DNA of 64,000 bases from contig JBNRSN020000022.1 in assembly GCA_051313645.2 (NCBI GenBank), positions 27,156,001 through 27,220,000 on the forward strand, in the 5' to 3' direction. Source of the stretch: Centroscyllium fabricii (lineage: Eukaryota). The notes under the pieces are model-generated. The model was not told where the DNA came from. It searched no databases and saw only the letters and a list, made by a program, of their open reading frames with translations. Within the stretch, counting starts at the first letter, position 1; each line of letters opens with the position of its first letter. Positions 18,166-63,349 of the stretch are shown piece by piece. Both the position numbers and the translations under genes were made by a program.

Positions 18166-18384
18166 CCCTGGAGCCAGCTGCTTAATTCTTTTGGCCAATA
18201 TTTTAGACACATATCAAACAGCCTTCAGATTTAAGGATGGGCTAACCTGCAAAATACCCCACCCTTTATGAGAAAGTTGTGAAAATGATTCAAAAGGCAT
18301 GCAAATCGTCATAAGAAGTACAATGATGGGGCTGCACAGCAATAGGGGCTCGATTTAAGAAACAGCAGCTCAGTCAAGTGTAAG

Positions 18385-23105: not shown

Positions 23106-23810
23106 TGAGAGTCAGGGACTATGGAACCGTGCCCATTAAGAGTCAGTGCCTATGGAACTGTACCCATTAAGAGTCAGGGCCTATGGAACTGTACCCATTA
23201 AGAGTCAGGGCCTATGGTACTGTACCCATTAAGAGTCAGGGCCTATGGTACTGTACCCATTAAGAATTAGAGCCTATGGAACTGTACCCATTAAGAGTCA
23301 GGGCCTATGGAACTGTACCCATTAAGAGTCAGGGCCTATGGAACTGTGCCCATTAAGCGTCAGGGCCAATGGAACTGTACCCATTAAGAGTCAAGGCCTA
23401 TGGAACTGTACCCATTAAGAGTCAGGGCCTATGGAACTGTACCCATTAAGAGTCAGGGCCTATGGAACTGTACCCATTAAGAGTCAGGGCCTATGGAACC
23501 GTGCCCATTAAGCATCAGGGCCTATGGTATTGTACCCATTAAGAGTCATGGCCTATGGAACTGTACCCATTAAGAGTCAGGGCCTATGGAACTGTACCCA
23601 TTAAGAGTCAGGGCCTATGGTATTGTGCCTATTAAAAGTCAGGGCCTATGGAACTGTGCCCATTAAGAGTCAGGGCCAATGGAACTGTACCTATTAAGAG
23701 TCAGGGCCTATGAAACTGTTCCAATTAAAAGTCAGGGCCTCTGGTACTGTTCCCATTAAGAGTCAGTGACTGTGGAACTTTACCCATTAAGAGTCAGAGC
23801 CTATGGTATT

Positions 23811-27409: not shown

Positions 27410-27724
27410 ACAGATTCTAGACAAACATTTTATCCTTTTTGAATGCTATTTTATTGCCCTGAAGGTAGTGACTCAGGTTGGGGTTCTACAGGAGATGGGA
27501 GTTATACCGCCACATCTGCAAAGTGATTGGGGCTGTGCATAAACATAAAAGTGACAAGGCTACTGAGCACATAAAGGCTCCAAGGCTTGAGATTCACCTC
27601 CTCACCAAAAGGCCATCTCACGTCAGTTTAAGCTGATAAAGAGCGTGGCATTAATGCAACCCAAGGAGGAAAGATTAACAAAACAAACTGGAACAGCATT
27701 GGCAAATCCCACAGCCATGGAGGG

Positions 27725-30205
27725 AGGGAGAGGGGAGAGGAGGAACAGAGAGACTGGGGAGAGTGAGAGGCAGAGAGACTGGGGAGAGGAGGAACAGAGA
27801 GACTGGGGAGAGTGAGAGGCAGAGAGACTGGGGAGAGTGAGAGGCAGAGAGACTGGGGAGAGTGAGAGGCAGAGAGACTGGGGAGAGTGAGAGGCAGAGA
27901 GACTGGGGAGAGTGAGAGGCAGAAAGACTGGGGAGAGGAGGGACAGAGAGACTGGGGAGAGGAGGGACAGAGAGACTGGGGAGAGTGAGAGGCAGAGAGA
28001 CTGGGGAGAGTGAGAGGCAGAGAGACTGGGGAGAGTGAGAGGCAGAGAGACTGGGGAGAGTGAGAGGCAGAGAGACTGGGGAGAGGAGGGACAGAGAGAC
28101 TGGGGAGAGTGAGAGGCAGAGAGACTGGGGAGAGTGAGAGACAGAGAGACTGGGGAGAGGAGGGACAGAGAGACTGGGGAGAGTGAGAGGCAGAGAGACT
28201 GGGGAGAGTGAGAGGCAGAGAGACTGGGGAGAGGAGGGACAGAGAGACTGGGGAGAGTGAGAGGCAGAGAGACTGGGGAGAGGAGGGACAGAGAGACTGG
28301 GGATAGTGAGAGGCAGAGAGACTGGGGAGAGTGAGAGGCAGAGAGACTGGGGAGAGTGAGAGGCAGAGAGACTGGGGAGAGTGAGAGGCAGAGAGACTGG
28401 GGAGAGTGAGAGGCAGAGAGACTGGGGAGAGTGAGAGGCAGAGAGACTGGGGAGAGTGAGAGGCAGAGAGACTGGGGAGAGGAGGGACAGAGAGACTGGG
28501 GAGAGTGAGTGCAGCGAGACCGGGGAGAGTGAGAGGCAGAGAGACCGGGGAGAGTGAGAGGCAGAGAGACTGGGGAGAGTGAGAGGCAGAGAGACTGGGG
28601 AGATCATTTTCCAACATTCCTTAGACTCTGAATCAGTTCCGATGGAGTGGAGGGTGGCTAATGTAACCCCTCTTTTTAAAAAAGGAGGGAGGGAGAAAAC
28701 AGGGAATTACAGACCGGTCAGCCTGACATCGGTGGTGGGTAAAATGATGGAATCAATTATTAAGGATGTCATAGCAGACCATTTGGAAAGTGGCGACATG
28801 ATAGGTCCAAGTCAGCATGGATTTCTGAAAGGGAAATTATGCTTGACAAATCTTCTGGAATTTTTTGAGGATGTTTCCAATAGGGTGGACGGGGGGGAAC
28901 CAGTAGATGTGGTGTATTTGGACTTTCAGAAGGCTTTTGACAAGGTCCCACACAAGAGATTGGTGTGCAAAGTTAAAGCACATGGGATTGGGGGTAATGT
29001 GTTGAAGTGGATTGAGAACTGGTTGGCACACAGGAAACAAAGAGTAGGAGTAAATGGGTACTTTTCAGAATGGCAGGCAGTGACCAGCGGGGTACCGCAG
29101 GGTTCGGTGCTGGGGCCCCAGCTGTTTACATTATATATTAATGATTTGGACGAAGGGATTAATTGTAGTATCTCCAAATTTGCAGATGACACTAAATTGG
29201 GAGGCAGTGTGAACAATGAGGAGGATGCTAGGAGGCTACAGAGTGACTTGGACAGGTTAGGTGAATGGGCAAATGTATGGCAGATGAAGTACAATGTAGA
29301 TAAATGTGAGGTTATCCACTTTGGTGGTAAAAATAGAGAGGCAGACTATTATCTGAATGGTGGCAGATTAGGGAAAGGGGAGGTACAACGAGACCTGGGC
29401 GTCATGGTACATCAGTCACTGAAGGTGGGAATGCAAGTGCAGCAGGCGGTCAAGAAAGCAAATGGCATGATGGCCTTCATAGCAAGGGGATTTGAGTACA
29501 GGAGTAGGGAGGTGATGCTACAGTTGTACAGGGCCTTGGTGAGGCCACACCTGGAGTATTGTGTGCAGTTTTGGTCTCCTAACTTGAGGAAGGACATTCT
29601 TGCTATTGAGGGACTGCAGCGAAGGTTCACTAGATTGATTCCTGGGATGGCCGGACTGACATATCAAGAAAGACTGGATCAACTGAACTTGTATCCTCTG
29701 GAGTTCAGAAGAATGAGGGGGGATCTTATAGAGACATATAAAATCCTGACTGGTTTAGACAAGTTAGATGCGGGCAGAATGTTTCCAATGTTAGGGAAGA
29801 GTAGAACCAGGGGTCACAGTCTAAGGATAAAGGGGAGGCCATTTAAGACTGAGATGAGGAGGAACTTCTTCACCCAGAGAGTGGTGAATCTGTGGAATTC
29901 TCTGCCACAGAAGGTTGTTGAGGCCAATTCGCTAAATATATTCAAAAGGGAGTTAGATATAATACTCACAACTAGGGGGATCAAGGGGTATGGTGAGAAA
30001 GCAGGAGTGGGGTACTGAGGTAGCATGTTCAGCCATGAACGCATTAAATGGCGGTGCAGGCTCGAAGGACCGAATGGTCTACTCCTGCACCTATTTTCTA
30101 TGTTTCTATGTTTCTGAGTGAGAGGCAGAGAGACTGGGGAGTGTGAGAGGCAGAGAGACTGGGGAGAGGAGGAACAGAGAGACTGGGGAGAGTGAGAGGC
30201 AGAGA
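27725..30205. repeat. GA-rich 24/25-bp minisatellite split by a CR1 insertion
   Basis: AGAGAGACTGGGGAGAGTGAGAGGC units at 27725-28602 and 30115-30205. Confidence 0.95.
28603..30114 (+). mobile_element. Young 5'-truncated CR1 LINE with an open RT/ORF2 C-terminus
   Basis: About 470 codons without stops (NYRPVSLTS, GVPQGSVLGP, FADD), stop at 30018, 3' UTR and (TTTCTATG)n tail. Confidence 0.96.
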
Positions 30206-36570: not shown

Positions 36571-37204
36571 CCTTTCTGCTCTGCATGGCTGATGCCCATA
36601 CGTAACACTGAATTTGTCAACTGGGCCTTTGGGTCATTCTTCACCTTGCTGAAGCCCATTGCGCTGGAGGACATTTGATTGCACAGAATGACGTCAGGCT
36701 GTGATATTGAGGGAATGTGCAGCAAACGACCACAAGAGCTCGGTTTTATTAAGTTCCTTGGTTTAACTGCAGCTCCAATCTGTTCCTGTCACAATCATTT
36801 GTTGGCAAAGCACCAACACGCCAACAGCCAGCCAAGCATCTGACTGTAGCCGTTACCTCGATGTGTTTACCACTTCCACACCATGATGTGCGAGTCAGCA
36901 GCAAACCCACAAGAGCACAACCCAGGAGGCAGCTCTGAATCAACACCTTCCAAATGCAATGTGGGTTACAGCTCCAGGCAAACAATATGCCGGCAAGATT
37001 TTAAGGCTGGCCAATTCCAATCTCACTACAGTGAACAAATCAATGACAAGGCCAATGACTTGGAGCAGGGCTGTGTGCAAGGGTTCGACATTCATCCAGA
37101 TTTTGTGAGAAGTAGGTTAGAAAGCGGTAAAGAAAATGGCTATTTTGCATCGTTCGTTTTCTTCCTTATTTTTTGCCATCCAATTTTCTCTTCACCTCTC
37201 CTGA

Positions 37205-38795
37205 GTGCACTGACTGGGGGGGGGCCCACTGACCAGGGGATGGAGGGGAGGGGCCCACTGACCGGGGGATGGAGGGGAGGGGCCCACTGACCGAGGGACG
37301 GAGGGGAGGGGCCCACTGACCGGGGGATGGAGGGGAGGGGGCCCACTGACTGGGGAATGAAGGGGAGGGGCCCACTGACCGGGGGATGGAGGGGAGGGGC
37401 CCACTGACCGGGGGATGGAGGGGAGGGGCCCAGTGACCGGTGGATGGAGGGGAGGGGCCCACTGACCGGGGGATGGAGTGGAGGGGCCCACTGACTGGGG
37501 GACAGAGGGGAGGCCCACATAACGGGGGATGGAGGGGAGGGGGCCCACTGACCGGGGGATGGAGGGGAGGGACCCACTGACCGGGGGATGGGGGGGGAGG
37601 GGCCCACTGACCGGGGATGGGGGTGGGGTCCACTGACTGGGGGATGGAGGGGAGGGGCCCACTGACTGGGGAACGGAGGGGAGGGGCCCACTGACCGGGG
37701 GATGTAGGGGAGGGGCCCACTGACGGGGGGATGGAGGGGTGGGGCCCACTGACCAGGGGATGGGGGGGAGGGGCCCACTGACTGGGGGATGGAGGGGAGG
37801 GGGCCACTGACCGGGGGATGGTGGGGGAGGGATCCACTGACCGGGGGATGGGGGCGAGGGGGCCACTGACCGGGGGATGGGGCCCACTGACCGGGGGATG
37901 GGGGGAGGGGCCCACTGACTGAGGGACGGAGGGGAGGGGCCCACTGACCGGGGGATGGAGGGGAGGGGAGGGGGCCCACTGACTGGGGGATGGAGGGGAG
38001 GGAGCCCACTGACCGGGGGATGGAGGGGAGGGGCCCACTGACCGGGGGATGGGAGGGAGGGGCCACTGAGTGGGGGATGGGGGGAGGGGCCCACTGACCG
38101 AGGGATGGAGGGGAGGGGGCCCACTGACCGGGGGATGGCGGGGAGGGGGCCCACTGACCGGGGGATGAAGGGGAGGGGTCCACTGACCAGGGGATGGAGG
38201 GAGGGGCCCACTGACCAGGGGATGGAGGGAGGGGTCCACTGACCAGGGGATGGAGGGGAGGGGCCCACTGACTGGGGGACGGAGGGGAGGCCCACAGAAC
38301 GAGGGATGGAGGGGAGGGGGCCCACTGACCGGGGGATGGAGGGGAGGGGCCCACTGACCGGGGGATGGAGGGGAGGGGCCCAGTGACTGGGGGATGGAGG
38401 GGAGGGGCCCAGTGACCGGGGGATGGAGGGGTGGGGCCCACTGACTGGGGGATGGGGGTGGGGTCCACTGACCGGGCGATGTAGGGGAGGTGCCCACTGA
38501 CCGGGGGATGGAGGGGAGGGGCCCACTGACCGGGGAACGGAGGGGAGGGGCCCACTGACCGGGGGACGGAGGGGAGGGGCCCATTGACTGGGGGACGGAG
38601 GGGAGGGGCCCACTGACCGGGGGATGGAGGGGTGGGGCCCAGTGACTGGGGGACGGAGGGGAGGGTCCCACTGACCGGGGGATGGAGGGGAGGGGCCCAT
38701 TGACTGGGGGACGGAGGGGAGGGGCCCATTGACTGGGGGACGGAGGGGAGGGCCCCATTGACCGGGCGATGGGGGGGAGGGGCCCACTGACTGGG
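37205..38795. repeat. G-rich ~29-bp minisatellite (CCCACTGACCGGGGGATGGAGGGGAGGGG)
   Basis: About 55 tandem units with strong G/C strand skew. Confidence 0.97.
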
Positions 38796-39989
38796 TACAT
38801 AGGGGCCCACAGTCCTTTAGTGGGGGCCTGGCCGATGGATGTCGACAGGATGTTGAACCCAGTCCTGTTCTTGCCTACTGGCCACCCAAGTGCAATCGAC
38901 AGCAGGGGACACCGGATGCCAGACCAGAGGATGGAAGAATCAGCCACAGCTCCCGCCCCAGTTCATTATAAACCACCCCTGCAGGAGGGTTTGCTGTGCC
39001 AGGTCAATTATGATTCCTGCGATGGTTCAATATCCCACCTACACTCACACAAGTGTGGCAAAATCAGGTGAGGTACCTGAGGGTTCCCCACATTTGTGGT
39101 TCGCCTACAAGAGCCAGCAGATTCAGGGAAGGACAGGAGTAAAAAGAAAGTGTGGGCTGAATAGAGAGATGGCTGTCGGACCACATTGACTGAGCTCACA
39201 CTGAATGAGGTGTGAAAAAGTGAAAGCACTGAAGATTGTGCTTTCAAGAAGGAAATGTATTCATCAGTACAGACCAAGTGCCAATATTTTACTGGAGGGC
39301 CGAGTGAAGTGACAGCATCTGCTATGTAAACTAACATTGCATTCACAGGGCTTAAATAATTGTTAGTATACAGAGAATTTGTTATAGCATGGCAAATTAC
39401 CAGAGATTAATGGGCAACTGGAATGGAATGTTCCTCTCCCAGCTGTTCCTGTTACTGGGCCTCTTTATAATGAGATGGCTTAATTTAAACCAAACAGGAT
39501 TGCATCTTTAAAAATATTGCAAGGACTTTAATTATTATTGTGTGCACAGATATTTAAAAAACCAGCACACTCACAGTTGCACATGGGGAATCAAGACCAA
39601 GATTAGTCTTCAAGGTAAAACGGGGTCAGAAGGCGGCGGATAATTGGACCAGGCCGTGAGAACTTAATTGGTTCTCATTTTAAAGTCATACATTCTGTCC
39701 TTATTCATGCATTTCAGTATAAATTCCTGTGTCAATAGTAATAATAGAAACTGCCAAAGTAAGCCTGTCATGCTGCAATTTCCCACGTTACAACAGTGAC
39801 TCCACTTCAAAAGTACAGGGTACTTTGTTGGCTGTAAAGCACCTTGAGACGTCAGGTGGTCGTGAAAGGCGCTATACAAATGCAAGTCTTTCTTTCTTTT
39901 AATTACACCCTCCTACCAGTCGAGGCACTGTCCTGTCACCAGGGTGTAATTACAGTGTGACCACTTAAACAAAGGCAGCTTCCATTATA

Positions 39990-40121
39990 AATTGTAAGAA
40001 GTCACACAACATCAGGTTATAGTCCAACAGTTTTATTTGAATAATAAAACTGTTGGACTATAACCTGGTGTTGTGTGACTTCTTACAATTGTCCACCCCA
40101 GTCCAACACCGGCACCTCCAC
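39990..40121. mobile_element. Penelope-like end with an inverted duplication (hairpin with ~45-bp arms)
   Basis: aattgtaagaagtcacacaac...gttttatt pairs with aataaaac...cttcttacaatt, followed by a non-paired tail. Confidence 0.72.
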
Positions 40122-40717
40122 TATAAATGTTATTACAGAAACTTATAATGGAAAATGTTGACAGGAAGTGCATGCAGATGCAAAAATATACATTATATTT
40201 GAATGAGGCTTTTTATTGACAGTCAACTAGCCATATTGTAACTTCACAGTCTGTGTTTCTGTGTATTTAGTGTCGCAAATTGCCCGCTACCTTCAGTTTC
40301 TGCTTTCTTTATCTCCCCAGGACACACTGCCTGTACCTTGCTCAAATAACAGTACCATCACCCATTTACACTGTGGAACCGCTAGCAGTAGCCAGCGATC
40401 AGAACCTGTCCCGTTTATACGGTGGGGCGGGTAAGGGGACTTGCAGCAACCCAGGAAACACTGCACTACCTGCGAATTTACTAGTGTGCCCTCGAATTGT
40501 GGCTGATGTCAGGGGGTGGAGCAGGTTCTACAGGGTTTGTCTGTAGTCTGAAAATTACTGTTGGTAATGTTATCCTACGACCGGTTAGCAGGTGTATATT
40601 ACTTCCTCTCTCCACCATTTAAATTGAGGTATGTAACCCGTTTAAAACCAACAGGTGTGCTTCTCCACTGAAATGGCAGACAGGTGAGTTTAATACAAGC
40701 CCCATTAAGTGTTTATA

Positions 40718-40860
40718 CAGGTTCAGCACTGGTAATCCGTTACCCGAAACGCCGGCAACTTCAGTGGTCCGGTATAAATCACCCCAACTGCCCTGCGCAT
40801 GCGCAAAATGGCAGCCGCGATCGAGGCTTCGGTGAATGATCTGCGCATGCGCCGCCGAAT
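40718..40860. mobile_element. Truncated Tigger/pogo-like MITE end
   Basis: TA-CAGGTTCAGCAC terminus; similar to the reverse complement of 46080-46221. Confidence 0.75.
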
Positions 40861-41131
40861 GACCTGTTGTGAATTGTTCCTCCGTGTGGGCTCCCTCATT
40901 TTGTTAGGAAACCTCGCTCTCCCACATTGGTGACCCCGATGTGATCCAATTTAGGAGAGCGAGGTTTCCTAACAAAATGAGGGAGCCGACACGGAGGAAC
41001 AATTCATAACAGGTCTTTTACTTCCAAACTCCAAAACAACTCTGAACAAAAAAGCCCGCGAGTCACGTGATGACGTCACCGCGTTGTATCACGTGGGTCC
41101 GTTTTCCCGCGCTCTTAAAGAGAAGGTAACA
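40861..41131 (-). mobile_element. ~181-bp Gypsy LTR (40951-41131) plus an inverted copy of its U5 and a tRNA-Trp PBS
   Basis: TGTTACC start on the minus strand; 70-bp arms at 40861-40930 and 40946-41015; TGGTGACCCCGATGTGAT at 40928-40945. Confidence 0.75.
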
Positions 41132-42371
41132 TACAATTGTTAAAGGGAATTATACATGGGTATTTTATATACAGGTATGTACAATGGGATGTGGACCTGC
41201 TACAACACTGTAATTTGTACTTGTATTCCTGCTCTACTCTGATGCTTGGTGGCCAGTTTCTGCATGGCTGGATTCTACCAGCCACTAATGTTCCACCTGC
41301 CCATTCCTTCACATCCAGCCATTTTCTTCAGTTGTCTTCCTCTTGATCTGTTCTTGAGAATACAAAGGTCAGTGAACAAGAAACAAAACTGTAAATGCGC
41401 AAAGAAGAAACTAATCGGATCTCTAGTGGCTAAAATAGCTGGCGCCCACGATGTTGCCCCATGCTGATAAGGAACAATATAGGGTGGCGTGCAGCAATTA
41501 TGCAGAATCTTAACCGCATCACATGATCTTTACTTAGCTGTAACTCAATCATAGTATGCAGCCTGCCCAGCTTGAAATGCCATAACTGCCAGACAAGGAA
41601 ACAGCTCGAAATGCCATAACTGCCAGACAAGGAAATCAAGTTAAAAGTATACATGCACAGCTCATGATTGCTGCAGAATGTATGCTGTGTTAATGCTTTC
41701 GCAATGCATGTATAAATATGTAGCACGCTGTATGTCAAACTGCTTACTCTGTTGGACTCGCCTGACTCTTGCAGGAGTCAGTGCCGATATACCAGAGTAA
41801 AGCCCTGCGGACAATAAATCTGTTGAACTTTCCAGTTGTATTCGACTCAGTGATTGCTGAACCAGACTGAGGGTAAAAGAATCCGTATTATCATTTGGCG
41901 TCAGAAGTGGGATCTCAAACGGACAGTCACCGAGAGTTCGCGAATGAAGAGCTGAATCGTCTCGGACGTGGAAGGAGGAAATGGGCCCCCGCTGTAAGTA
42001 GTTTTCTCTTACTACCTCGGTTTTCCTCTGATCCGCCAGTCTGACGACGAGTCGGCCAATCGCTAGCTCCCGTGTGGTGTCCCAACGAGATCCAGGTCAG
42101 TCTGGCGAATATTGGAAAAGATAGGTGATTAGGTCAGTGATCGGATATCACTGAGGGTCAGTATACGTACTGAGGAAATAACTAGGTGATTAGGTCAGTG
42201 ATCGGATATCACTGAGGGTCAGTATACGTACTGAGGAAATAACTAGGAAATGTGTAAACTTAGAAATAAGCACTTGTGTCAGGTAAAGCGTCGACCTTGT
42301 ATCTCACTTGTCCCGCCTAGGCTCTGAACAAGTTTAAAACGCGACTGTGTAAAGTTCACAAGGGGAGTAAG

Positions 42372-44454
42372 ATGGGCAATTGTTTAGATATCACGACTGA
42401 ATCGGGTAGCGCCTTACAGACCTTTTGTGAACAACATCCTGACAAAGCAAAGCAACTTAGACAGTTGTCAGGAGGATTAAATAAGAAATTAGGAAGTGAT
42501 CAATGGGCACTCGGAGGAACTAAGAATCTAGATGCCGCTAAAAAGGCTCAAGAACTAATTTGGAGAAGTAACAGGGGTACCACAGCCAAATAACTAATTG
42601 CCCTATGGAGACAGTACTGCCAGGAACTAAAAGAAACTTCCTTGTTAGCAAGTTGGCAGGATAATGCCTTAAAATTAGGAATAGGACTAACCAAAGGAGG
42701 GGTAGTCAAACCAGCAGAGGTACTGAAAAAAGAATGCGCTCATGAGAAACGCTCGAAACAGGAGTCTGAAAAGACCATGGGCGAGTCTGGAAAGACTGAT
42801 AAGAGTGGATTACATAATCCAATGGCTGGCCTTGCCTTAACAGAGGGAGATGATGATAATTTGGATGAATGGAATCACAGGGCTCATGTTGTTCCCCAAG
42901 CCCCTATTGCTCCCCCCCCCCCCCCCTGTACGTTAACATTTATCCCCCGGCGGCACCCGTACCAACTGTACAAACCCCCACGCCGACACCTCAAGTATCT
43001 GCCAGTGCCGTTTCCCTGCCAACGTCAGTCGCGGTTCAAGTGAATAATCCCCAGTCGCCGGTCCAGACGGGAAACCAACCACCGGGTCCCCAGTATACCA
43101 ACCCTGTCGCTTTTCGTACTCGACTCAGAACCAAGATTAATCGGCCCCCGACGACACCTTCCCCACCCCAACCCAGTCCATCAAGGTCAAGAAAACGGAG
43201 AAATCAAAGGCAGATGATTCAAAGTCAGAGACTAGAGAGTCAAAGCCAGAGTACCCTCAAGGCTTTACGGTCCTTCTTAGAATGCCAGAACCATAGTGAC
43301 ATTGACAGTGGAGATTCAGGAGACGACTTGTCATCCCTGGAATCAGAATCCGATACCGAGAAACCCGCCAGATATAAACCGACACCCTGGCAGTTGGCGG
43401 TGAGGCAAATGCCTAACCCTGCCTATATCATGGCTAATCCAGTGGCCGCCGGTAACCCCCAGACCATAGGTATCTACTACCCCTGGAAACCTAACGAGAT
43501 AATGGCTATCTTAACTGGGATGCCAGATAGGAAGAAATCCCCCACCTCGTTTGTAGACGTCCTCCGGACTACTATACTCATCTATAATGCTGAATCAAGA
43601 GACTTATGGGTGTTGGTACAGCAGGTCTTGACTCCCGCCGAACATGCAAGGTTTTTGGCTAACCTAGGCCTTGCGAACCATGCCGCATTAATGAATCGAC
43701 ATGCACAGAGTGCTGCTCGTGAAAATGCCATACTCACTGCTTTAACCACCGCCCTACAGAAGCCGATTGACATATCCAAGGTGTTGGATACTAAACCACG
43801 AAAGGGCGAGGGAGCAGAGGAATTTCTAGAGAGATTCTCTGAGGTATATGGGAGTCAGTCAGGAGATGCTAATTACCAGAATGGAGCAGACTCGCCGCAA
43901 TACTGTGCTATTCTGATAAATTGTCTACCAACCCGAGCGTCTGAAGCAATTAAGACTAACAATATGGACTGGTCAGAGAATAGTCCCAGCCAGATTTAGC
44001 CAGGGCAGTGAAATATTATTGGAAAGAGAGTAAGAATCAGGAGAGTCAGCCCCAGGTCAAAGTCAAGACTGAGTATGTGATGAAAAAGGAAGAGCCAAAG
44101 CCCACCCAAGATGTGATAGGATATCAGATGGAGCCCCAGTACTGTGTCCCAGGGTGGGTTGATGGACAAGGGTATGAATATGTCAGCCATCCTAACGGAC
44201 TGACCGCCCCATATCATGGCCCACCCTACGCTCCCCCGAGACAAAATTTCGGCGGTAGAGGAAGAGGAGGGAGGCAAGCAGGGTCAGATGCCTGTTTCAA
44301 CTGTGGTCAGCAAGGCCACTGGAGCAAGGAATGTCCCTCCCGAAGATAAGGAAGAGGGGGCCATATGCAAGGACAACGGGGAGGTTGGCAGGGAAATCGG
44401 GGACGAGGAAGATATACAGACTTCTCCCAGAATAATCCGTTTCCCCAGTACTGA
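42372..44454 (+). pseudogene. gag: ERV gag with stops and a frameshift
   Basis: MGN myristoylation start, Pro-rich region, capsid-like YYPW and EEFLER, single CCHC knuckle CFNCGQQGHWSKEC. Confidence 0.9.
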
Positions 44455-45350
44455 CTAGCCAACCTCGTGGTGAACGGGTTCCAGTCGGACAAGGAGCCCG
44501 TTCTATCCTACTAATTGGAGGAAACTGGCATATGTTTCTGGTAGACACCGGAGCATCTATGTCATCCATCCAATCGGAGCTCAATCTCTGTAAGTCCAGG
44601 GAGACACAAAGCCTGTCCAGATTCCAAGGACAAGTGTGCCAGTACCCGATATCAGAACCAGTTGAAGTAGTATTTTGAAATGAGTCCGTAAAACACCAAT
44701 TCATAATCACAAATGGGCTGGATTGCAATCTCATGGCCAGAGACCTGTTATGTGCCTTTCAATTAAGACCTGAGTGTGGGAACGAAGGAATAACTGTGAA
44801 ACCATGGGCCCCTAAAAGACAATGTTACGCCTCTATCACCCCGCAATGGTGAACTCTGGACTTAAAGGATGAACCCCCATCTCATGTAGCCCTAGCTTAT
44901 GATCAAAGTGGAAAAGATAAGAAGTTGGAGAATTTTTACCAAGCTTATGGAAGGACTGAGTGGAATGTTGTTCTCCGAGCCATAGTTACGGTACCGGAGG
45001 GGAAAGCAGAATATGTTGAGGTTCCCTCGGAATTGTGGAAGCAACCCGTAACTGTAGCCCCACACGTCACCCGGGAAGTGAACTTCTCCTACCATGCGAA
45101 AGATCTGGGACCCATGATAAAACAAGCAGTTGAACAAGCTAACCCAGATGACCGGCAGGAGCAGGCCCTGTCAGGCGGTCGAACTATCCTGTTCTACCAA
45201 GAACCGAATGTAGCCCTGACACAGTTGCACCACCACGTTGGGAATGAGGTACCGGAATACGTCAATCCGCAAGTGTGGGCAGAAGACCCCATACAGGTAG
45301 GATGCGTTAAAATAACTCCCATCCAAATCGCCCTACAGGAAAATGTTGTA

Positions 45351-46221
45351 CAGGTTGAGCACCGTTAATCCGGCACGGGCGGGACCAGGCCCGTGCCGGG
45401 AAATGGAAAAAACCGGGAGAACGAGTTTGGACACTGCGCATGCGCACCAGTCACAATGGCAGCGCGCATGCGCGCAACATTGGTATTGGCTGGCGCGCGC
45501 ATGCGCAGATCGTCCAATATTGGCCGCCGCGAAGTTTTTTGATGGGCTCAGGCTTTTGTGGCGTTCCGTTTAGGTTTTAGGGCTGTCGGGCAGCAGTGAA
45601 AGGCCGGTCTTGCGGGGGGAGGCAGGAGGGTGGCGTGGCGTGGCGCGGCGCGGGGGGGGGGGGAGGAAGGCGCGGGTCCGGGGGGGGGGGAAAAGAGGGT
45701 GGCGCGGGTCGGCGGGGGGGCAATTTATCCAATCCCGTTTTGCTCTGTAAGAGGTCACACGGCGCCAGGCTGTGGTCCAACGGTTTTAGTTGGGGTCACG
45801 GGCTTTCGGAGCGCCGCTTCCCCGTCAGGTGATGGGGGAGCGGCGCTCCGAAGGCCCGTGATTTCGAGTGGGACTTTTGGACAACAGCCTGGTGCTGTGT
45901 GGCTTCTTACAATTGTCCATCCCAGTCCAACACCAGCACCTCCACATCATGGCTTCAATTACAGTTATCGATAAAATAACCGGCGGCCGTATTGAATTAT
46001 CTGCGCATGCGCTAACCTTCCGGCGACGCATGCGCAGATCATTCAAAACACCCGCAGCTGTTTTGAATGATCTGCGCATGCGCTCGGCACATGCGCAGAT
46101 CATTCGTTGAAGCCACGATGGCGGCTGCCATTTTGCGCATGCGCAGTGCAGTCGGGGCAATTTGTGCCGGCAGACTGAAGCTGCCGGCTATTCGGTTACC
46201 AGATTAACGGTGCTCAACCTG
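45351..46221. mobile_element. Tigger/pogo-like MITE inserted in ERV pol
   Basis: CAGGTTGAGCACCGTTAATC TIRs and TA TSD; removal restores ENVV-LPSIRQY. Confidence 0.9.
45746..45952. mobile_element. Penelope-like palindromic end nested in the MITE, A>G hypermutated
   Basis: Homologous to 39990-40121; 166-bp palindrome at 45746-45911. Confidence 0.8.
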
Positions 46222-47671
46222 TACTACCCTCTATACGACAGTATCTGCTGAAACAACAAGCGATACCAAGCATTGATAAATTGATCACAGGACTACTGAA
46301 ACAAGGAATCCTGATTAAATGCCAGTCCCCGTGCAACACGCCCATACTTGCAGTTCCAAAACCAGGAAAGCCAAACCAGTACAGACTAGTACAGGACTTA
46401 CGATCTATCAATGCTATTGTACAACCGCTTCATGCACTGGTACCTAATCCAGCTCACATTCTGGCCCAGGTCCCTGCACAAGCGAAAATCTTTGCAGTAG
46501 TCAATCTCCAACACGCCTTCTTCGCCTTGCCACTGGAACCGGCAAGCCAGTACCTCTTTGCCTTTAGTTATAATGGACAACAGTATACGTGGACCTGACT
46601 GCCGCAAGGTTTCGTAAACTCTCCAACATTATTCTCTAGGTGCCTACAAGGACAGTTGCAGACTTTGACCTTAAAACATGGTTCCGCTCTGGTACAATAC
46701 GTGGACGATTTGCTAATAGGTAGCCCTGATGAACAAAGTAACCAGGAAGACACTGCCCAGTTGCTTAATCACCTATCCTCACTAGGTACATAGTATCTCA
46801 CTCAAAGGTACTAGTGGCTCAACATAAAGTTAAGTTCCTCGGCTTTATGCTCTCAGCAACCGAGCGGAGTCTGGAGAGAAGCAGGATTGAGCCAATCTGT
46901 CAGTTCCCGGTACCCCGTAATGCGAAACAAGTGAGGCAATGGATGGGGATGGTAAACTACTGTAGACAATGGATACCCAACATCGCTCTGGAAACCAAAC
47001 GACTGACACCATACACCAGTATGGAGGGCAAGTTTTAGCTAGATCCTGTCGCCCTGTGAGCGTTTGAAAACCTAAAGGGAGCATGTCACAAGCACCAGCG
47101 TTAGGGAGACCCCTGTATGACAGGCCCTTCCAGCTATACTGCACTATCCTCACTGATTGTTCGACTGCTGTCCTAACTCAAAAACATGGGGACAAGCATA
47201 GGCCGGTGGCTTACTACTCCTCGAAGTTAGATCCGGTAGCGCGAGGACATCCTGTATGCACCCAGATTCTGACCGCCATCTATAATAGCCTACAGTCAGC
47301 TGCCAATCTAACTTTGCAACAAGATATTACAGTATACAGTTCGCACTCGGTAACTGCACTATTAGGCCAATTACAAACTCAGCACCTCACTATGGCCCGA
47401 CAAAATAAGTACGAGATATACCTGTTCAATAATCCTAAACTACAATTTAAGCATTGTACTACTATCAACCCAGCATGTTTTCTCACAGAACCACAACTCG
47501 AACAAACGGACCCAGGACATGATTTTCTATTTTTAATCAAGGAAGATACCTTCGTCAGGGATGATCTATCTGATGCCCCAATGCAGAGTCCTAACACAAC
47601 CATGTATGCAGATGGAAGTGCATCCGTCAGTCCCCTTGGGAAAAGACATTCTGGATATGCAATCGTAGATC

Positions 47672-48079
47672 GGGCGGCACGGTGGCATAGTGGTTAGCAT
47701 TGTTGCCTCACAGCTCTGGAGACCCGGGTTCAAATCCGGCCTCGGGTACTATCTGTGTGGAGTTTGCACATTCTCCCCGTGTCTGCGTGGGTTTCCTCCG
47801 GGTGCTCCGGTTTCCTCCCACAGTCCAAAGATGTGCGGGTTAGGTTGATTGGCCAGGATAAATTGACCCTAAGTGTTAGGGGGATTGAATATGTGGAATT
47901 ACGGGGATAGGGTGGGATGTGTGTCAGTGCAGGCTTGATAGGGATCGAGGGATATGGGGAGAGGGTAGGGGCGGGGTACTGGGTTTGGATGATCAGCCAT
48001 GATCTCATTGAATGGCGGAGCAGGCTCGAAGGGCCGAATGGCCTACTCCTGCTCCTAGTTTCTATGTTTCTATGTTTCT
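47672..48079 (+). mobile_element. V-SINE inserted in ERV RNase H
   Basis: Near-identical to the 1064 copy; ATC duplicated; removal restores IVD-QDGK. Confidence 0.93.
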
Positions 48080-49741
48080 ATCAGGACGGTAAAACTTTGG
48101 AGTCTGCCGCTTTTGAGTTTCCGTATTCCGCCCAACAAGCAGAACTGTTCGCATTAATACGAGCTTGTATTTTAGGGAAGGACTTAAAGGTTAACGTTTA
48201 TACAGACTCGAGATATGCCTTCGGAGTGGTTCATGATTTCGGACAATTATGGAAGAACAGAGGGTTCCTAACCTCTGCAGGAACACAGATATCCCATCAG
48301 AAATTAGTATCTGACTTGCTACAAGCCCTCATGCTACCAAAACAGATCTCCGTTATAAAGTGCTCTGCACACACGGCAGGACAAACCCCAGTAGATATAG
48401 GGAATAGATGCGCTGACCAGGAAGCTAAGGAAGCGTCCCAGGAACAATGAGTGGTTGTGCCTAGAATGATGAGCCAGACTAAAAGCTCAAATAAAAGCAA
48501 ATCTCCCTTGGAAAAGCCAATGCCAACCATCCAAGACGTCATTAAGTTACAGGAGGACGCTCCTGACTGTGATAAAGGACTGTGGAAACAGCTCGGTTGT
48601 ACATATGATTGTATGTCTAAACTATGGGTCACCCCTTCCGAGCAAACTTGTATGTCAGATGAGCTAGCATTATGGGTTATTGAATGTATACACTTTGCAA
48701 CTCATTGTGGTGCCAGAGCAACTAGTGACACGCTATTAGCTACAGGGTGGCATCCTAGATTACAATCTCTGGCTCAAGGTATTAGTAGTCACTGCCTCAT
48801 TTGTCAGCAGCATAACCCGGGAAAAGGCATACCTTGTGAAATGGGTAAGACGCCGTTACCCACGGGTCCTTTTGAGACCCTCCAGATGGACTACATTGAG
48901 TTGGAAAGGTGTCAGTGTTATAAATATGTACTGGTTATTGTTGATGTATTTAGTAAATGGATTGAGGCCTACCCGACTACGGATAACAAAGCCTCCAGTG
49001 TTGTAAAAGTTTTAATGAGAGAAATTATTCCCAGGTACGGAATTCCAAAGCGAATAAGTTCAGACAACAGCCCTCACTTCGTGGGTCAGGTAAACAAGGA
49101 ATTCTGCACCCAGATGGGCATCCAACAGCAGCTACATTGTGCCTACAGGCCGCAGGCTGCCGGACTGGTCGAACGTGCTAGCCAGAACTTGAAAAATAAA
49201 CTTGCCAAATTACAGGCCGAGACGGGAACTACCTGGCTCAAACTACACCCCGTGGCCTTGTTCTAAATACGTACTACCCCGGCTGGTGCAGCAAGGTTGA
49301 GCCCTGCTGAAATCATATATGGCAGACCTCTCAAAACCCCGTGGAACCAGGAAGTCCCAAAGACTGTCCACTTTCACCACATGACAGCAGAAATGACTAA
49401 CTATATTTTGTCGTTAACCAGGGCATTGAGAGGTCTGCGCTCCCGGGTACGCGCTGCCTACGTCAACCTCCCTCCTATAGCCAGTCCGTCCAAAATCGAG
49501 CCCGGAGCTTATGTATTGATCAAGAACTGGACAAGAAAAGGATTGGAACCTCGTTGGGAAGGACCCTTTCAAGTCCTACTCACCACCCCAACTGCTGCCA
49601 AAGTAGAGGGAAAGAGTGCTTGGGTTCACCTCCACCACTGTAAAATTGGCAGTAATGGTATGCCTAAAACTTAAAGAATGCTAACCTCTCTCTTTCTTCC
49701 AAGAAATTTCTCCTTAAACAGACGTGCCGTGCCGACCGGCC

Positions 49742-51649
49742 ATGCAGACGCCACTATGGATCCTCTCCATCGGTGTCTTGCTCACTCCTGGAATAACTCA
49801 ACATGCCGGCGGGACCAACCCAAGCGGGTACACCATCTATGCCAAGGAGACGTGCTTCAGTGCAATGATGGTAACCCAAGAGGGTTCGGGAAATGGAACG
49901 TGATCAACTTGGACACCTACATTGGGCTTTTCAGACAGCCCCACTGCTCGCTAGTGCTGAGAAACAATCACAGAGGGACATTGCCATGCTATCGGACTGA
50001 GTGTAAATTTGATTATGTTTGCCGACGTCAAGCGGCCGAGTCTGTTACTGCAGGACCAGGCCTTAGAACTACAGATACCGAAAAACAAAATCGTTATCTA
50101 AAGTTCAATCAGGAAAGGAAGACAAATGGGCTGCCCCCTATGAGCAGCTTCGACTATTTTAGGTTAGAAGGTGCCCTCGCAAAAAGACGTAAATGAGATC
50201 ACCAACACACTTTCCCTGAAGAAACCCCGACGGGTAACCTATTCCTCCAGACTCACGCAGCCCTATACTCAAAGTCAATTGTTTGTTATCCGCCCCTGAA
50301 ATCTGTTGAGGGGTTGTTTGCCCCAACCCCGGTTATTGTTCCCCCAGACTTTCTTTTAGATACTCACCTTCCCCCTCCCACAATTACCCTATACCTTAAC
50401 CTCGCCCGCCAATTGCCTGAGACTAAGCAGGAACCCTGGTGGCTATGAGAATTGTTGGAATGGGACGGGCTATGGTTGTAGGTCGCTATGGGTTAAACAG
50501 AACTACACCTGCTTGGTGACACGCTGCCTCCACCATCAATGTGCGGTAGGACCGGACACCGGTAGCTGCACATGTGAGCAATCCGTATGTGTGCCGATAA
50601 CCGAAGGAGTACAAGTTCTATGTGGAGAAAGGAATGGGACAGCTCTGAAGGTAGAGGGGGAAACCTTTATTATAGTACAAATAGCTAATACCCAGCCTGC
50701 TGATACGTCAGATACTCTTGAGATCCGAAGTTTAGACTATTTCCTTCCCCTGAGCCATTTAAGCACAAGGCGGAAAAACATACCCGGGATATATACCAAA
50801 CCCGGCTATTTTTTCTTGAGCCAAGGAAAAGCTACTAATTACATGGTAGTAGATATCACCCCCCCCACCCCCCCGGGACTGTAGCCATCGCTACCTTAAC
50901 CCCATACCACAGTACCTTGCCCCTACCAATGGACACCCCACCGAAAAATAGTAGCCAGGGCAGCCTCGGAAGAGTTTTGCTCCAAGTGGAAAGATCCTGA
51001 ATCCCTAGGAGGACACGGAACATCTATAGGATATGGATTTGCTGGCCTGTTCTCTATAGGCTATACTGGAGCCTATCTGGCCACCAATAACCGGATCTAC
51101 CTTATCTGTGGCCTCACCATACTGGGTAATGCTACCATGGGGGCCCTCGACGCAGTCACTGAAGAATTGTCGGAACTCAAGTTGTACACTATGCAGAATA
51201 GATATGCCCTAGACTACCTGCTGGCCCGAGAAGGTGGTGCCTGTGCAATAGTAAAAGGTAAATGCATTATGGGAGTCCGAGACCAGATAAAGAACATCAC
51301 CCACTTTATCACTAAGATAAGGGAACAAATGGATAATATGAAGGAAGCAAGTAACTGGGGAGACTGGGGATTTGGAGGATGGTCTGACTGGTTGGTAAAT
51401 ATGGCTATGTACTTAGTAGTTGCAATCGTCTGTATCTTTGTTGGACTAGCAATCATGAAATGTGTGTTAGGAAGAATGCAGCTAGCTTTGGAAAAAATAG
51501 GTGCCCCAAAGATGTTAATAGTAAGACAGACCAATGAATGTGAAGTGAAGAAAGTGGAAGATGAAGTAAAGTACAATGATGAAGAGTTTAAACGACTGAA
51601 TAGGTTAGACGTAACCGAATATGAGCCCCATAACGGTTGGTTATCATAG
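49742..51649 (+). pseudogene. env: ERV env, frameshifted
   Basis: Upstream CTAAC, pyrimidine tract and AG acceptor; signal peptide MQTPLWILSIGVLL; ISD MQNRYALDYLLAREGG; CX6C; TM helix. Confidence 0.9.
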
Positions 51650-52239
51650 AATGATAAAAGGAGGGAATGAGAATACAAAGGTCAGTGAAGAAACAAAACT
51701 GTAAATGCGCAAAGAAGTAAGAAACTAATCGGATCTCTAGTGGCTAAAATAGCTGGCGCCCACGATGTTGCCCCATGCTGATAAGGAACAATGTAGGGCG
51801 GTGTGCAGCAATTATGCAGAATCTTAACCGCATCACGTGATCATTACTTAGCTGTAACTCAATCATAGTATGCAGCCTGCCCAGCTCGAAATGTCATAAC
51901 TGCCAGACAAGGAAACAGCTCGAAATGCCATAACTGCCAGACAAGGAAATCAAGTTAAAAGTATACGTGCACAGCTCATGATTGGCGCAGAATGTATGCT
52001 GTGTTAATGCTTTCACAATGTATGTATAAATATGCAACACGCTGTATGTCAAACTGCTCACTCTGTTGGACTCGTCTGACTCTTGCAGGAGTCAGTGCCG
52101 ATATACCAGAGTAAAGCCCCGCGGACAATAAATCTGTTGAACTTTCCAGTTGTATTCGACTCAGTGATTGCTGAACCAGACTGAGGGTAAAAGAATCCGT
52201 ATTATCCTTCTCAGCAATTTTCCAGATAGAAACAATTCC

Positions 52240-58873: not shown

Positions 58874-61800
58874 GGGTGAAATTGGTCTTCAGTAACAGCA
58901 CAAAACGGGGAACAGCGAATCGGCTGCCTAATTTACATCCCACCCAATTATCGGCCTGTTTTACACACTGCCTAATTATTGGCCTGTTTTACACAACGCC
59001 CAATTATCGGCCTGTTTACACCCCGTCCAATTATTGGCTTGTTATACACCCCACCCAATTATCGGCCTGTTTCATACCCCGCCCAATTATCAGCCTGATT
59101 AATACCCCGCCCAATTATTGGCTTGTTATACTATACACCCCACCCAATTATTGACTTGTTATACACCCCACCAATTATCAGGCTGTTTGACACCTCGCCC
59201 AATTATCAGCCTATTTTACGTCCGCCAAATATCGGCCTCTTTTACACTTTGCCCAATTTTCGGTCTGTTTTACACCCCGCCCAATTATCAGCCTGATTAA
59301 TACCTCGCCCAATTATCAGCCTGATTAATACCTCGCCCAATTATCAGCCTATTTTACGTCCACCCAATTATCGGCCTGTTTAACACCCCACCCAATTATC
59401 GGCCTGTTTTACGTCCACCCAATTATCAGCCTGATTAATACCTCGCCCAATTAGCGGCCTGTTTCATACCCCGCCCAATTATCGGCCTGTTTCATACCCC
59501 GCCCAATTATCAGCCGGTTTAACACCTCGCCCAATTATTGGCCGGTTTAACACCTTGCCCAATTATCAGCCTATTTTACACCTCGCCCAAATTTCGGTCT
59601 GTTTTACACCTTGCCCAATTATGAGCCAGATTGATACCTCGCCGAATTATCGGCCTGTTTTACACCCCGGCCAATTATCAGCCTGTTTTACGTCCACCCA
59701 ATTATTGGCTTGTTTTATACCCTGCCCAATTTTCGGCCTGTTTCATACATCGCCCAAATTTCGGTCTGTTTTACACCTTGCCCAATTATCAGCCTGATTA
59801 ACACCCCGTCCAATTATCGCTCTGCTATACGCCCTGCCCAATTATCGGACTGTTATACACTCCGCCCAATTATCAGCCTGATTAACACATCACCCAATTA
59901 TTAGCCTTCTATACACACCACCCAATTATCGGCCAGATTTACACCCTGCCCAATTATCGGCTTGTTATACACCCCGCCTTATTATTGGCGGGCTTTACAC
60001 ACATCCAATTATTGGCCTGTTATACAACTGCCCAATTATCGGTCTGTTTTATACCCTGCCCAATTATCAGCCTGATTAATACCTTGCCCAATTATCAGCC
60101 TGTTTGACACCCCGCCCAATTATCAGCCTGTTTTTCAAACCCGCCCAATTATCGGCCTGTTTAACGCCTCACGCAATTATCAGCCTATTTTACGTCCACC
60201 CAATTATCAGCCTGTTTTACACTTCGCCCAATTTTCGGTCTGTTTTACACCCGCCCAATTATCGGCCTGTTTTACACCCACCCAAATATCAGCCTGATTA
60301 ATACTTCACCCAATTATCAGCCTGTTTAACACCTCGCCCAATTATCAGCCTGTTTTACGTCCACCCAATTATCGGCCTCTTTAACACCTCGCCCAATTAT
60401 CAGCCTGATTAACACCCTGCCCAATTATCGGCCTGTTTTATACCTCACCCAATTATCGGCCTGTTTTACACCCTGCCCAATTATCAGCCGGTTTAACACC
60501 TCGCCCAAATTTCGGTCTGTTTTACACCTTGCCCAATTATCAGACTGTTTTACACACACCCAATTATGAGCCAGATTGATACCTCGCCCAATTATCAGCC
60601 TGTTTGACACCCTGGCCAATTATCAGCCTGTTTTTCAAACCCGCCCAATTATCGGCCTGTTTAACACCTCGCCCAATTATCAGCCTGTTTTGCACCCCGG
60701 CCAATTATCGGCCTGTTTAACACCTCGCCCAATTATCAGCCTGTTTGACACCCCGCCCAATTATCGGCCTGTTTCATACCTCGCCCAATTAGCAGCCTGT
60801 TTAACACCTCGCCCAATTATCGGCCTGTTTCATACCTCGCCCAATTATCGGCCTGTTTAACACCTCGCCCAATTATCAGCCTGTTTTGCACCCCGGCCAA
60901 TTATCGGCCTGTTTAACACCTCGCCCAATTATCAGCCTGATTTACGTCCACCCAATTATCGGCCTGTTTCATACCTCGCCCAATTATCAGCCTGTTTGAC
61001 ACCCTGTCCAATTATCGGCCTGTTTTTCAAACCCGCCCAATTATCAGCCTGATTAACACCCCGCCCAATTATCGGCCTGTTTTACACCCCGCCCAATTAT
61101 CGGCCGGTTTAACACCTCGCCCAATTATCAGCCTGTTTTATGTCCACCCAATTATCGGCTTGTTTTATACCCTGACCAATTATCGGCCTGTTTCATACCC
61201 GGCCCAATTATCGGCCTGATTAACACCCCGCCCAATTGTCGACCTGTTCTACACCCGCCCAATTATCGGCCTGTTTCATACCCCGCCCAATTATTTGCCT
61301 GTTTTACACCCCGCCCAATTATCGGCCTGTTTTACAGCCCACCCAATTATCGGCCTGTTTAAGGCCTCGCCCAATTATCAGCCTATTTTACGTCTGCCCA
61401 AATATCGGCCTCTTTTAGACTTCGCCCAATTTTCGGTCTGTTTTACACCTTGCCCAATTATCGGCCTGTTTTACACCCACCCAATTATCGGTCTGTTTTA
61501 CACCCACCCAATTATCAGCCTGATTAATAGCTCGCCCAGTTATCAGCCTGTTTGACACCCCGGCCAATCACCAGCCTGTTTTGCACCCCAGCCAATTATC
61601 GGCCTGTTTAACACCTCGCCCAATTATCAGCCTGTTTTACGTCCACCCAATTTTCGGCCTGTTTCATACCTCGCCCAATTATCAGCCTGATTAACACCCC
61701 GCCCAATTATCGGCCTGTTTCATACCTCACCCAATTATCAGCCTGTTTTACGTCCACCCAATTTTCGGCCTGTTTCATACCCTGACCAATTTTCGGCCTG

Positions 61801-62986
61801 TTTCATACCTCGCCCAATTATCAGCCTGATTAACACACCGCCCAATTATCGGCCTGTTTAACACCCGCCCAATTATCAGCCTATTTTACATCCGCCCAAT
61901 TATCGGCCTGTTTTACACCCACCCAATTATCAGCCTATTTTACATCTGCCCAATTATCAGCCTGATTGATACCTCGTCCAATTATCGGCCTGTTTTACAT
62001 CCACCCAATTCTCGGCTTGTTTTATACCCTGCCCAATTTTTGGCCTGTTTCATACCTCGCCCAATTATCAGCCTGATTAACACCCCACCCAATTATCGCC
62101 CTGCTATACGCCCTGCCCAATTATCGCACTCTTATACACTCCGCCCAATTATCGGCCTGATTAACACATCACCCAATTATTGGCCTTCTATACACCCGCC
62201 CAATTATCGGCCTGTTTTATACCTCACCCAATTATCGGCCTGTTTTTCAAACCCGCCCAATTATCAGCCTATTTTACGTCCGCCCAATTATCAGCCTGAT
62301 TAATACCTTGCCCAATTATCGGCCTGTTTGACACCCCGCCCAATTATCGGCCTGTTTAACGCCTCATGCAATTATCAGCCTATTTTACATCCACCCAATT
62401 ATCAGCTTGTTTCACACCCACCCAATTATCAGCCTGATTAATACTTCGCCCAATTATCAGCATGTTTTGCATCGTGGCCAATTATCGGCCTGTTTAACAC
62501 CTCGCCCAATTATCAGCCTGTTTTACGTCCACCCAATTATCGGCTTGTTTTATACCCTGCCCAATTTTCGGCCTGTTTCATACATCGCCCAATTATCAGC
62601 CTGATTAACACCCCGCCCAATTATCAGCCTGATTAACACCCCGCCCAATTATCGGCCTGTTATACACCCGCCCAATTATCGGCCTGTTGTACACCCGCCC
62701 AATTATCGGCCTGTTATACACCCGCCCAATTATCGGCCTGTTATACACCCTGCCCAATTATCAGCCTGATTAACACCGCTCAATTATCGGCCTGATTAAC
62801 ACCCCGCCCAATTATCGGCCTGTTTTACACCCGCCCAATTATTGAACTGTTTTATACGTCACCCAATTATTGGCCTGTTTTATACCCTGCCCAATTATCT
62901 TTTCAAAAGAAAATTGTGAGGGGAATAAACGGGCTACCAATTCACTATTACCCGCTTTGTACTATCGCCAAAGATCAATTTCACCC
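58874..62986. mobile_element. Fold-back MITE whose interior is expanded into a 4-kb array
   Basis: Imperfect TIRs of about 60 bp: gggtgaaattggtcttcagtaacagcacaaaacggg versus the reverse complement of the right end, gggtgaaattgatctttggcgatagtacaaagcggg. Confidence 0.8.
58935..62900. repeat. 28-bp minisatellite (CCCAATTATCRGCCTGTTTTACACCCCG), about 140 units
   Basis: Visible tandem array with higher-order block copies (59822 versus 62101). Confidence 0.97.
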
Positions 62987-63349
62987 ACTATTTCTAAAAA
63001 ATCCCATGGGGAAATGTGTTTGTACAAGAGTGCCCTCCAACCTGGCAAAAACATATCAATAGCTTTTCAGATTTCCCCATTTTATCCCCTGGTCTCCAGG
63101 CAGTACAGACTTGATGAGGTACAGTTTCATGGGTTCTAGCCGTGCCCCCAATAGCCAGTTTTTAGGCATCTGCCTAGATAGTGTTGGCAGGTTATATGTT
63201 CAGGTGGAGGGGTCAGGGGGCAAAGTTGAATCTGATTCTGTTCTTATCTGGCATCCGTGAACACGCACACACACTCGCACACAGACATACACCCAGACAC
63301 AAACATTCAGACATATTCACGCACTCAGACATACTCACACACATGCAGT

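What the first reader, a model, noticed from the sequence alone, without database searches (positions are those of the whole stretch)
45746..45911. Candidate ADAR hyper-editing fixed in germline DNA: A>G-rich hairpin inside MITE inside ERV
Seen: against the sister copy at 39990-40121, the 94 alignable arm positions show 15 A>G, 3 T>C and 3 other changes. A>G occurs in both arms on the same (+) strand, and each T>C lies opposite an A>G and restores pairing. The adjacent unpaired 34 nt show no A>G, only one C>T and one G>A. Known: same-strand A>G clusters limited to dsRNA are the ADAR signature. Inference: an edited RNA was reverse-transcribed into the genome, either as + strand ERV genomic RNA carrying the MITE cargo or as a self-mobile hairpin retroelement. 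The compensatory T>C changes could come from arm-to-arm G:T repair or from editing of A:C mismatches in an antisense RNA. Caveat: 45590-45720 is also G-rich and A-poor and has no in-window reference.
Basis: partly seen in the sequence, partly recalled or inferred. Interest (0 to 1): 0.85.

Follow-up and report, generated by a model that had tools for sequence, protein, structure and literature searches.

The report
RNA editing scars fixed in genome
This hairpin is the end of a Penelope-type retrotransposon in which about half of the A's on one strand read G, most likely because the RNA-editing enzyme ADAR edited its RNA before it was copied back into germline DNA; a small DNA transposon then spread it to over 1,500 sites, and dozens of unrelated copies in the same genome carry the same kind of scar.

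Summary
The A>G cluster is real and almost certainly ADAR-type, but the provirus had no part in it. The hairpin is the inverted end of a Penelope-like element (over 107,000 arms genome-wide). Against the family it has 22/42 A>G and 7/42 T>C. The same edits sit in at least 1,596 copies of a TA-duplicating MITE, and the fetched copies lie at unrelated sites; one copy jumped into this ERV as DNA. A sister MITE lineage has 18/42 A>G and no shared T>C, so the compensating T>C came later. The effect is family-wide: 63 other independent loci or clusters are hypermutated. In arms not used for selection, A>G is 325/991 against T>C 12/1016. The 5' neighbour order is T>A>C>G, and unpaired tails are spared. 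A 15-copy retrocopy family found by flank alone gives a parent-daughter test: the inferred source is unedited, and 11 of 12 daughters are edited in different patterns, inside the hairpin (163/469 A) and not in flanks (3/1168). Ten literature searches found no report of this for non-LTR retrocopies. No RNA data were obtained.

The parts
45746..45827 (+). Left (antisense) arm of the Penelope-like inverted end, A>G-hypermutated on the + strand
45830..45911 (+). Right (sense) arm: 3' end of the Penelope-like pseudo-LTR, A>G-hypermutated on the + strand. It holds the remains of a minimal hammerhead motif at about 45830-45862 whose core A's now read G (matched by eye).
45912..45950 (+). Unpaired Penelope-type tail, no A>G
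45951..45960 (+). 3' copy of the 10-bp target duplication of the hairpin inside the MITE. The 5' copy is partly deleted in this copy; both copies are perfect in the sister MITE lineage.
45351..46221 (.). 871-bp MITE with about 29-bp terminal inverted repeats and TA duplication. At least 1,596 copies carry the hairpin junction.
45612..45722 (+). G-rich variable tandem repeat of the MITE (unit about 28 nt); not editing
41355..52209 (+). Decayed endogenous retrovirus (gag zinc knuckle, RT, RNase H, integrase, env; many stops; MITE and SINE insertions in pol). A bystander host of the MITE. LTRs 41355-41895 and 51668-52209 differ at 18 of 538 aligned positions.
39993..40121 (+). Unedited short-loop sister copy of the same Penelope-like hairpin family

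Best explanation
The hairpin is the inverted 3' end of a Penelope-like retroelement with about half of its A's on one strand changed to G, most likely because ADAR edited it as double-stranded RNA and the edited RNA was then reverse-transcribed into germline DNA. Shown: the strand-specific A>G excess, its restriction to paired arms, the ADAR-like 5' context across the family, the spread by a MITE, and the later origin of the T>C changes. Inferred order: (1) a + strand RNA holding both arms was hyper-edited (about 18 sites); (2) it was reverse-transcribed and came to lie inside a MITE, either as a passenger in a LINE-mobilised transcript that already held MITE plus hairpin (about 0.5) or by direct Penelope insertion into a MITE (about 0.4); (3) DNA transposition multiplied it; (4) one lineage gained 4 more A>G and 7-8 T>C opposite earlier edits, by a further RNA passage or by arm-to-arm G:T repair (unresolved); (5) a copy of that lineage inserted into the ERV as DNA.
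For: Window copy: A>G 22/42, T>C 7/42; sister lineage L324-L331: 16-18/42 A>G and no shared T>C in 8 of 8 copies. Of 120 loci fetched from 131 pattern hits, 90 have at least 4 unforced A>G and form 64 clusters. In 60 non-MITE representatives: A>G 821/1825, T>C 17/1982; arms not touched by the pattern 325/991 against 12/1016; tails 8/230; 5' neighbour T 0.71, A 0.57, C 0.38, G 0.22, p about 1e-40. C>T control pattern: 20 hits, 0 of 20 with an extra change at the free positions. Edit-blind retrocopy family: shared SINE/CR1-type 3' end with different downstream flanks and nested 5' truncations. Inferred source L313 unedited; 11 of 12 distinct daughters edited with different site sets (Jaccard 0.06-0.67); hairpin 163/469 against flanks 3/1168, T>C 1/454. 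L316 shares an extra SINE with L313 and has 10 edits that L313 lacks. 19 of 63 edited loci have no partner arm within the fetched 1.4-3 kb. Adenosine-deaminase-domain genes are present at five places. 5' G depletion is the published ADAR mark (PMC8586724 and PMC5625713, passages).
Against: No RNA was examined, so editing in this organism is inferred from DNA only. The window copy's own 5' context is weak (G 3/9 against 19/33). There is no 3' G preference (G 0.49, T 0.49, A 0.46, C 0.37), though PMC5625713 reports that amphibians and invertebrates lack it too. No unedited MITE-plus-hairpin parent was seen (0 of 100 listed of 1,596), so step 2 for this founder is not shown. The MITE's own short stems look unedited by eye. 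The non-MITE edited copies were not checked against independent reads; two segmental duplicate pairs share their edits. The source call for L313 rests on nested 5' ends, not on a traced transcript.
Confidence: 0.88

Rival explanations
1. Editing in place: ADAR deaminated dA in DNA:RNA hybrids, or edited RNA templated repair of its own locus, without a new insertion.
For: It would also give one-strand A>G in either orientation (13:13) with intact target duplications. Such routes are proposed in PMC10209271 (passages).
Against: 11 of 12 retrocopies are edited while their inferred source is not. 0 of 20 unselected arms are edited, and roughly 0.3% of arms genome-wide. 19 loci lack a partner arm nearby.
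Confidence: 0.06
2. GC-biased gene conversion, or slow compensatory evolution of a structured RNA through G:U intermediates.
For: In the main MITE lineage 7-8 pairs did go from G:T to G:C, so a GC-favouring step may explain the T>C part.
Against: A>G 325/991 against T>C 12/1016 is strand-asymmetric; tails and flanks are spared; the 5' context is strong; daughters of one source differ from one another. The edits destroy the hammerhead core (by eye).
Confidence: 0.03
3. One reading: the ERV's genomic RNA carried the MITE and was edited before integration.
For: The edits are on the ERV's sense strand, and ADAR marks in proviruses are known (PMC8025556).
Against: Identical edits occur in MITE copies at unrelated sites with their own TA duplications. 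A less-edited sister lineage exists. The LTR differences are unbiased. Other copies of this ERV were not searched.
Confidence: 0.01
4. Assembly or sequencing artefact.
For: Systematic mismatch-cluster errors are known in trace data (PMC2873906).
Against: The same letters occur in 27 of 29 MITE copies and in short-read contigs of two samples. The changes follow secondary structure and ADAR context.
Confidence: 0.01

Closest known systems
ADAR hypermutation recorded in proviral DNA: BLV 3' LTR (PMC8025556, passages read); RAV-1 and avian leukosis virus (cited in PMC8586724, originals not read)
   Same: Clustered A>G from an edited RNA, fixed in DNA by reverse transcription
   Different: Those are exogenous viruses in somatic or cultured cells, and rare. 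Here they are germline-fixed non-LTR and passenger sequences, at dozens of independent loci, with a parent-daughter series and later spread by a DNA transposon.
APOBEC 'DNA editing' of LTR retroelements (PMC4866542, passages read)
   Same: Strand-biased deaminase footprints inherited in vertebrate retroelement copies
   Different: That is G>A on cDNA, not tied to duplex structure, and reported absent from DNA transposons. Here it is A>G tied to dsRNA, and it is found inside a DNA transposon as cargo.
RNA-level hyper-editing of repeats, including lizard Penelope and palindromic frog Harbinger (PMC5625713, passages read)
   Same: Same substrate type (palindromic repeat) and same 5' G depletion
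   Different: Seen in RNA against an unedited genome; here the changes are in the genome.
Penelope-like elements with pseudo-LTR, inverted 5'-truncated copy, 30-40-bp tail and minimal hammerhead (PMC8557442, PMC4209133, PMC11167929)
   Same: Inverted arm, tail on one side, hammerhead-like core, and a GIY-YIG-like coding remnant upstream in longer copies
   Different: The clade was not determined and no RT was traced. The window copy is a 205-bp end with a mutated ribozyme core.

Membership tests
ADAR hyper-editing footprint | A>G far above T>C on one strand | tested here: met
   325/991 against 12/1016 in unconstrained arms; 163/469 against 1/454 in the edit-blind family; 18/42 against none shared in the sister MITE lineage
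ADAR hyper-editing footprint | Confined to double-stranded regions | tested here: met
   Flanks 3/1168 and tails 4/88; tails 8/230
ADAR hyper-editing footprint | 5' neighbour preference with G depleted | tested here: met
   T 0.71, A 0.57, C 0.38, G 0.22; 0.59, 0.49, 0.20, 0.10; weak in the window copy alone
ADAR hyper-editing footprint | 3' G preference (mammal and reptile motif) | tested here: not met
   G 0.49, T 0.49, A 0.46, C 0.37. PMC5625713 reports that this preference is not shared by all animal groups.
ADAR hyper-editing footprint | Inosine or A>G seen in RNA of unedited loci | not testable with these tools
   No RNA holder listed for this stretch
Penelope-like element | Inverted truncated copy plus 30-40-bp tail at one end, with target duplication | tested here: met
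   compared with PMC8557442
Penelope-like element | Minimal hammerhead motif in the pseudo-LTR | tested here: inconclusive
   Unedited copies fit the description in PMC4209133 by eye. Rfam gave no hammerhead hit on the edited copy; unedited copies were not scanned.
Penelope-like element | C-terminal GIY-YIG endonuclease upstream of the pseudo-LTR | tested here: met
   Motif about 558 nt upstream in one amplified long copy. Atlas top hits are GIY-YIG at 0.95. Pfam hit is weak, E 0.063, below the cut-off.
Penelope-like element | Telomerase-related RT in the same ORF | not tested
   No full-length copy was fetched
MITE (non-autonomous DNA transposon) | Terminal inverted repeats, fixed target duplication, many dispersed copies | tested here: met
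   TA duplication in 32 of 34 loci examined; in 2 the left repeat was not found. 1,548 first-look candidates.
Tigger/pogo superfamily (name recalled) | Matching autonomous transposase | not tested
   Assignment rests only on the TA duplication and a recalled terminal motif
ERV-borne edited cargo | Edits restricted to proviral copies | tested here: not met

The most novel reading that the evidence does not exclude
In this genome reverse transcription routinely writes ADAR hyper-edits into the germline. Most retrocopies of a duplex-containing transcript arrive edited (11 of 12), hundreds of Penelope arms and some SINEs carry the scars, and repeats therefore hold a fossil record of germline ADAR activity; in one lineage the scar was multiplied over 1,500-fold by a DNA transposon and possibly edited again.
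Probability: 0.75. Interest if true: 0.82.

Novelty: new variant of a known kind. Interest (0 to 1): 0.74.

Why it matters
[quoted passage not shown] A cell-culture study found no editing of L1 RNA (PMC5224506, passages read). This genome offers a countable test set: a source locus with differently edited daughters, a rough rate (about 0.3% of arms overall, 11 of 12 in one retrocopy family), and an ADAR sequence preference read from DNA alone. It shows RNA editing acting as a heritable mutagen that created a repeat variant now in more than 1,500 copies. It also warns that such copies can hide or mimic RNA editing when reads are mapped.

Tried and rejected
ERV-RNA route: rejected. G-rich 45612-45722 as editing: rejected, it is a tandem repeat. 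Rfam scan of the edited region gave only generic miRNA-like hairpin hits below gathering scores. The first DNA search returned only 6 candidates because common words are skipped; the true count is at least 1,596. A random 200-kb sample held 5 family copies, none edited, too few for a rate. No RNA holder was listed for the stretch; this is no evidence either way. Independent read support for the retrocopy family was not obtained. The idea that L128-type MITE copies with one T were ancestral was dropped, since they occur on both junction types. An empty MITE site or an unedited MITE parent was not found in held loci (all 43 junction matches carry the edited hairpin). Target duplications at the outer ends of the retrocopy family were not found convincingly. 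Pfam found nothing in 8 ORFs near those copies. Three loci (L178, L181, L248) were wrongly flagged as MITE by a loose match and left out of the spectrum; they are counted. Nine hits were not fetched (three with the MITE-type 25-mer, six repeating 25-mers of amplified clusters). Literature: 10 searches found no report of germline-fixed ADAR hyper-edits in non-LTR retrocopies; most subscription papers are not in the library, and no supplements were read.

Full report
Setting. The window lies in a 7.2-Gb genome; its repeats look like those of a cartilaginous fish (recalled, not tested). The finding sits in an 871-bp element with terminal inverted repeats and a TA duplication. That element interrupts the pol region of a decayed endogenous retrovirus (Pfam hits) whose LTRs differ at 18 of 538 positions without A>G bias.

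Observation. The hairpin 45746-45911 is real.

What the hairpin is. It belongs to a family with 107,387 exact matches to one unedited 25-mer. Copies have an antisense arm, a sense arm, a tail of about 34-40 nt on one side and target duplications. This is the arrangement described for Penelope-like elements (PMC8557442, passages; tail mechanism in PMC11167929, first two of four parts read). Unedited arms fit the minimal hammerhead description by eye (PMC4209133, passages). One amplified long copy has a GIY-YIG-like coding remnant about 558 nt upstream (Atlas 0.95; Pfam weak). The RT was not traced.

The ERV is a bystander. The same G-rich hairpin is in four MITE copies outside the ERV, in 27 of 29 copies fetched by the MITE's right end, and in a longer MITE subfamily. 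The junction pattern has 1,596 matches, and none of the 100 listed is unedited.

The T>C are secondary. Eight copies of a sister MITE lineage have 16-18/42 A>G, no shared T>C, a perfect 10-bp duplication on both sides and the family's tail letter. The main lineage adds 4 A>G and 7-8 T>C. Eight of 19 earlier G:T pairs and 0 of 23 A:T pairs took T>C (Fisher p 0.0006, counts entered by hand). An antisense RNA passage with editing at A:C mismatches fits, and so does G:T to G:C repair between arms. Other edited hairpins show no such compensation (17/1982), and some MITE copies are mosaics of the two lineages. I could not separate the two.

The effect is family-wide. Two patterns forcing two A>G gave 70 and 61 hits; 49 of the 70 have further G at free positions (my count of the listing). 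A matched C>T pattern gave 20 hits, none with an extra change. I fetched 120 loci; 90 have at least four unforced A>G in the focal arm and fall into 64 clusters, one being the MITE. In 60 representatives A>G is 821/1825 and T>C 17/1982; in arms untouched by the pattern 325/991 against 12/1016; in tails 8/230. Editing by 5' base is T 0.71, A 0.57, C 0.38, G 0.22, matching the published ADAR preference. There is no 3' G preference. 34 of 60 have both arms edited on the same strand. A rough correction for the forced sites gives about 300 edited arms, near 0.3%; 0 of 20 unselected arms were edited. Genes with the adenosine-deaminase domain lie at five places.

A parent-daughter test. One cluster shared long flanks, so I searched with the flank alone and got 15 copies. 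Thirteen end at the same SINE/CR1-type tail with different downstream flanks; two are interrupted before it. They have nested 5' truncations, the pattern of retrocopies. L313 extends upstream of all the others and is unedited, so it is the inferred source. After merging two duplicate pairs, 11 of 12 daughters are edited, each in its own pattern: hairpin 163/469 A, flanks 3/1168, T>C 1/454. The twelfth has lost its right arm. L316 shares a later SINE insertion with L313 and carries 10 edits that L313 lacks. In several daughters the SINE is edited too, up to 35/66.

Routes. Both-arm copies lie 13:13 sense and antisense to the tail, as expected for passengers in longer transcripts. Single-arm copies without a nearby partner (19 of 63), one with a duplication right at its ends (L181), fit direct Penelope insertion of edited RNA. 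Which route made the MITE founder is open.

Rivals. Editing in place is disfavoured by the unedited source, the low genome-wide rate and the partnerless arms, but it was not tested with orthologues. GC-biased conversion cannot give the strand asymmetry. Artefact is unlikely.

Comparison. ADAR marks in proviral DNA (passages) and APOBEC marks in endogenous retroelements (passages) are known. A review called a role for ADAR in retroelement evolution undetermined, and L1 RNA was found unedited in cells. Ten searches found no report of the present case, but the library is incomplete. Three unchecked notes from this scan describe like cases in other genomes; they are not evidence here but suggest that the process is not confined to this genome.

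Verdict. Observation confirmed; mechanism ADAR plus reverse transcription 0.88; ERV route rejected; new variant of a known kind; interest 0.74. No RNA evidence was obtained.

Noticed in passing
L306:1991-2377, L311, L315, L224:828-1208: SINE copies next to edited hairpins are themselves A>G-hypermutated on the same strand (17-36 sites), so the footprint is not limited to Penelope ends.
   Followed up: partly
L138-L140, L148, L149, L210, L213, L222, L223, L228; L130, L229, L261: Two more edited copies were multiplied within larger duplicated or tandem-rich regions (10 and 3 fetched copies).
   Followed up: partly
L283, L284, L278, L262: MITE copies that are mosaics of the less-edited and more-edited hairpin lineages, suggesting conversion between copies or arms.
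   Followed up: partly
window 40716-40854 and 40858-41018: A related MITE end (83% alike) and a 73-nt-arm inverted repeat just upstream of the 5' LTR.
   Followed up: no
window 47672-48083 and 1064-1469: SINE with a CR1-type tail inside the ERV pol region, and a second copy; neither looks edited.
   Followed up: partly
window 2720-7186: Gypsy-like LTR retrotransposon with a 1278-aa open frame on the - strand (RT, RNase H, integrase) and 98% identical LTRs.
   Followed up: no
window 28558-30018: 486-aa non-LTR RT frame followed by a CR1-type tail.
   Followed up: no
L073-L101: Unedited full hairpins turn round at a fixed short centre, and subfamily variants appear in both arms, which suggests the two arms are made from one template at insertion.
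   Followed up: no
window 9500-12000, 17850-18870, 20800-23600, 27600-28650, 37150-38900, 58900-63000: Several minisatellite arrays (units 17-31 nt).
   Followed up: no
L189:183-1163: DDE_Tnp_4 (Harbinger-type, name recalled) transposase fragment.
   Followed up: no
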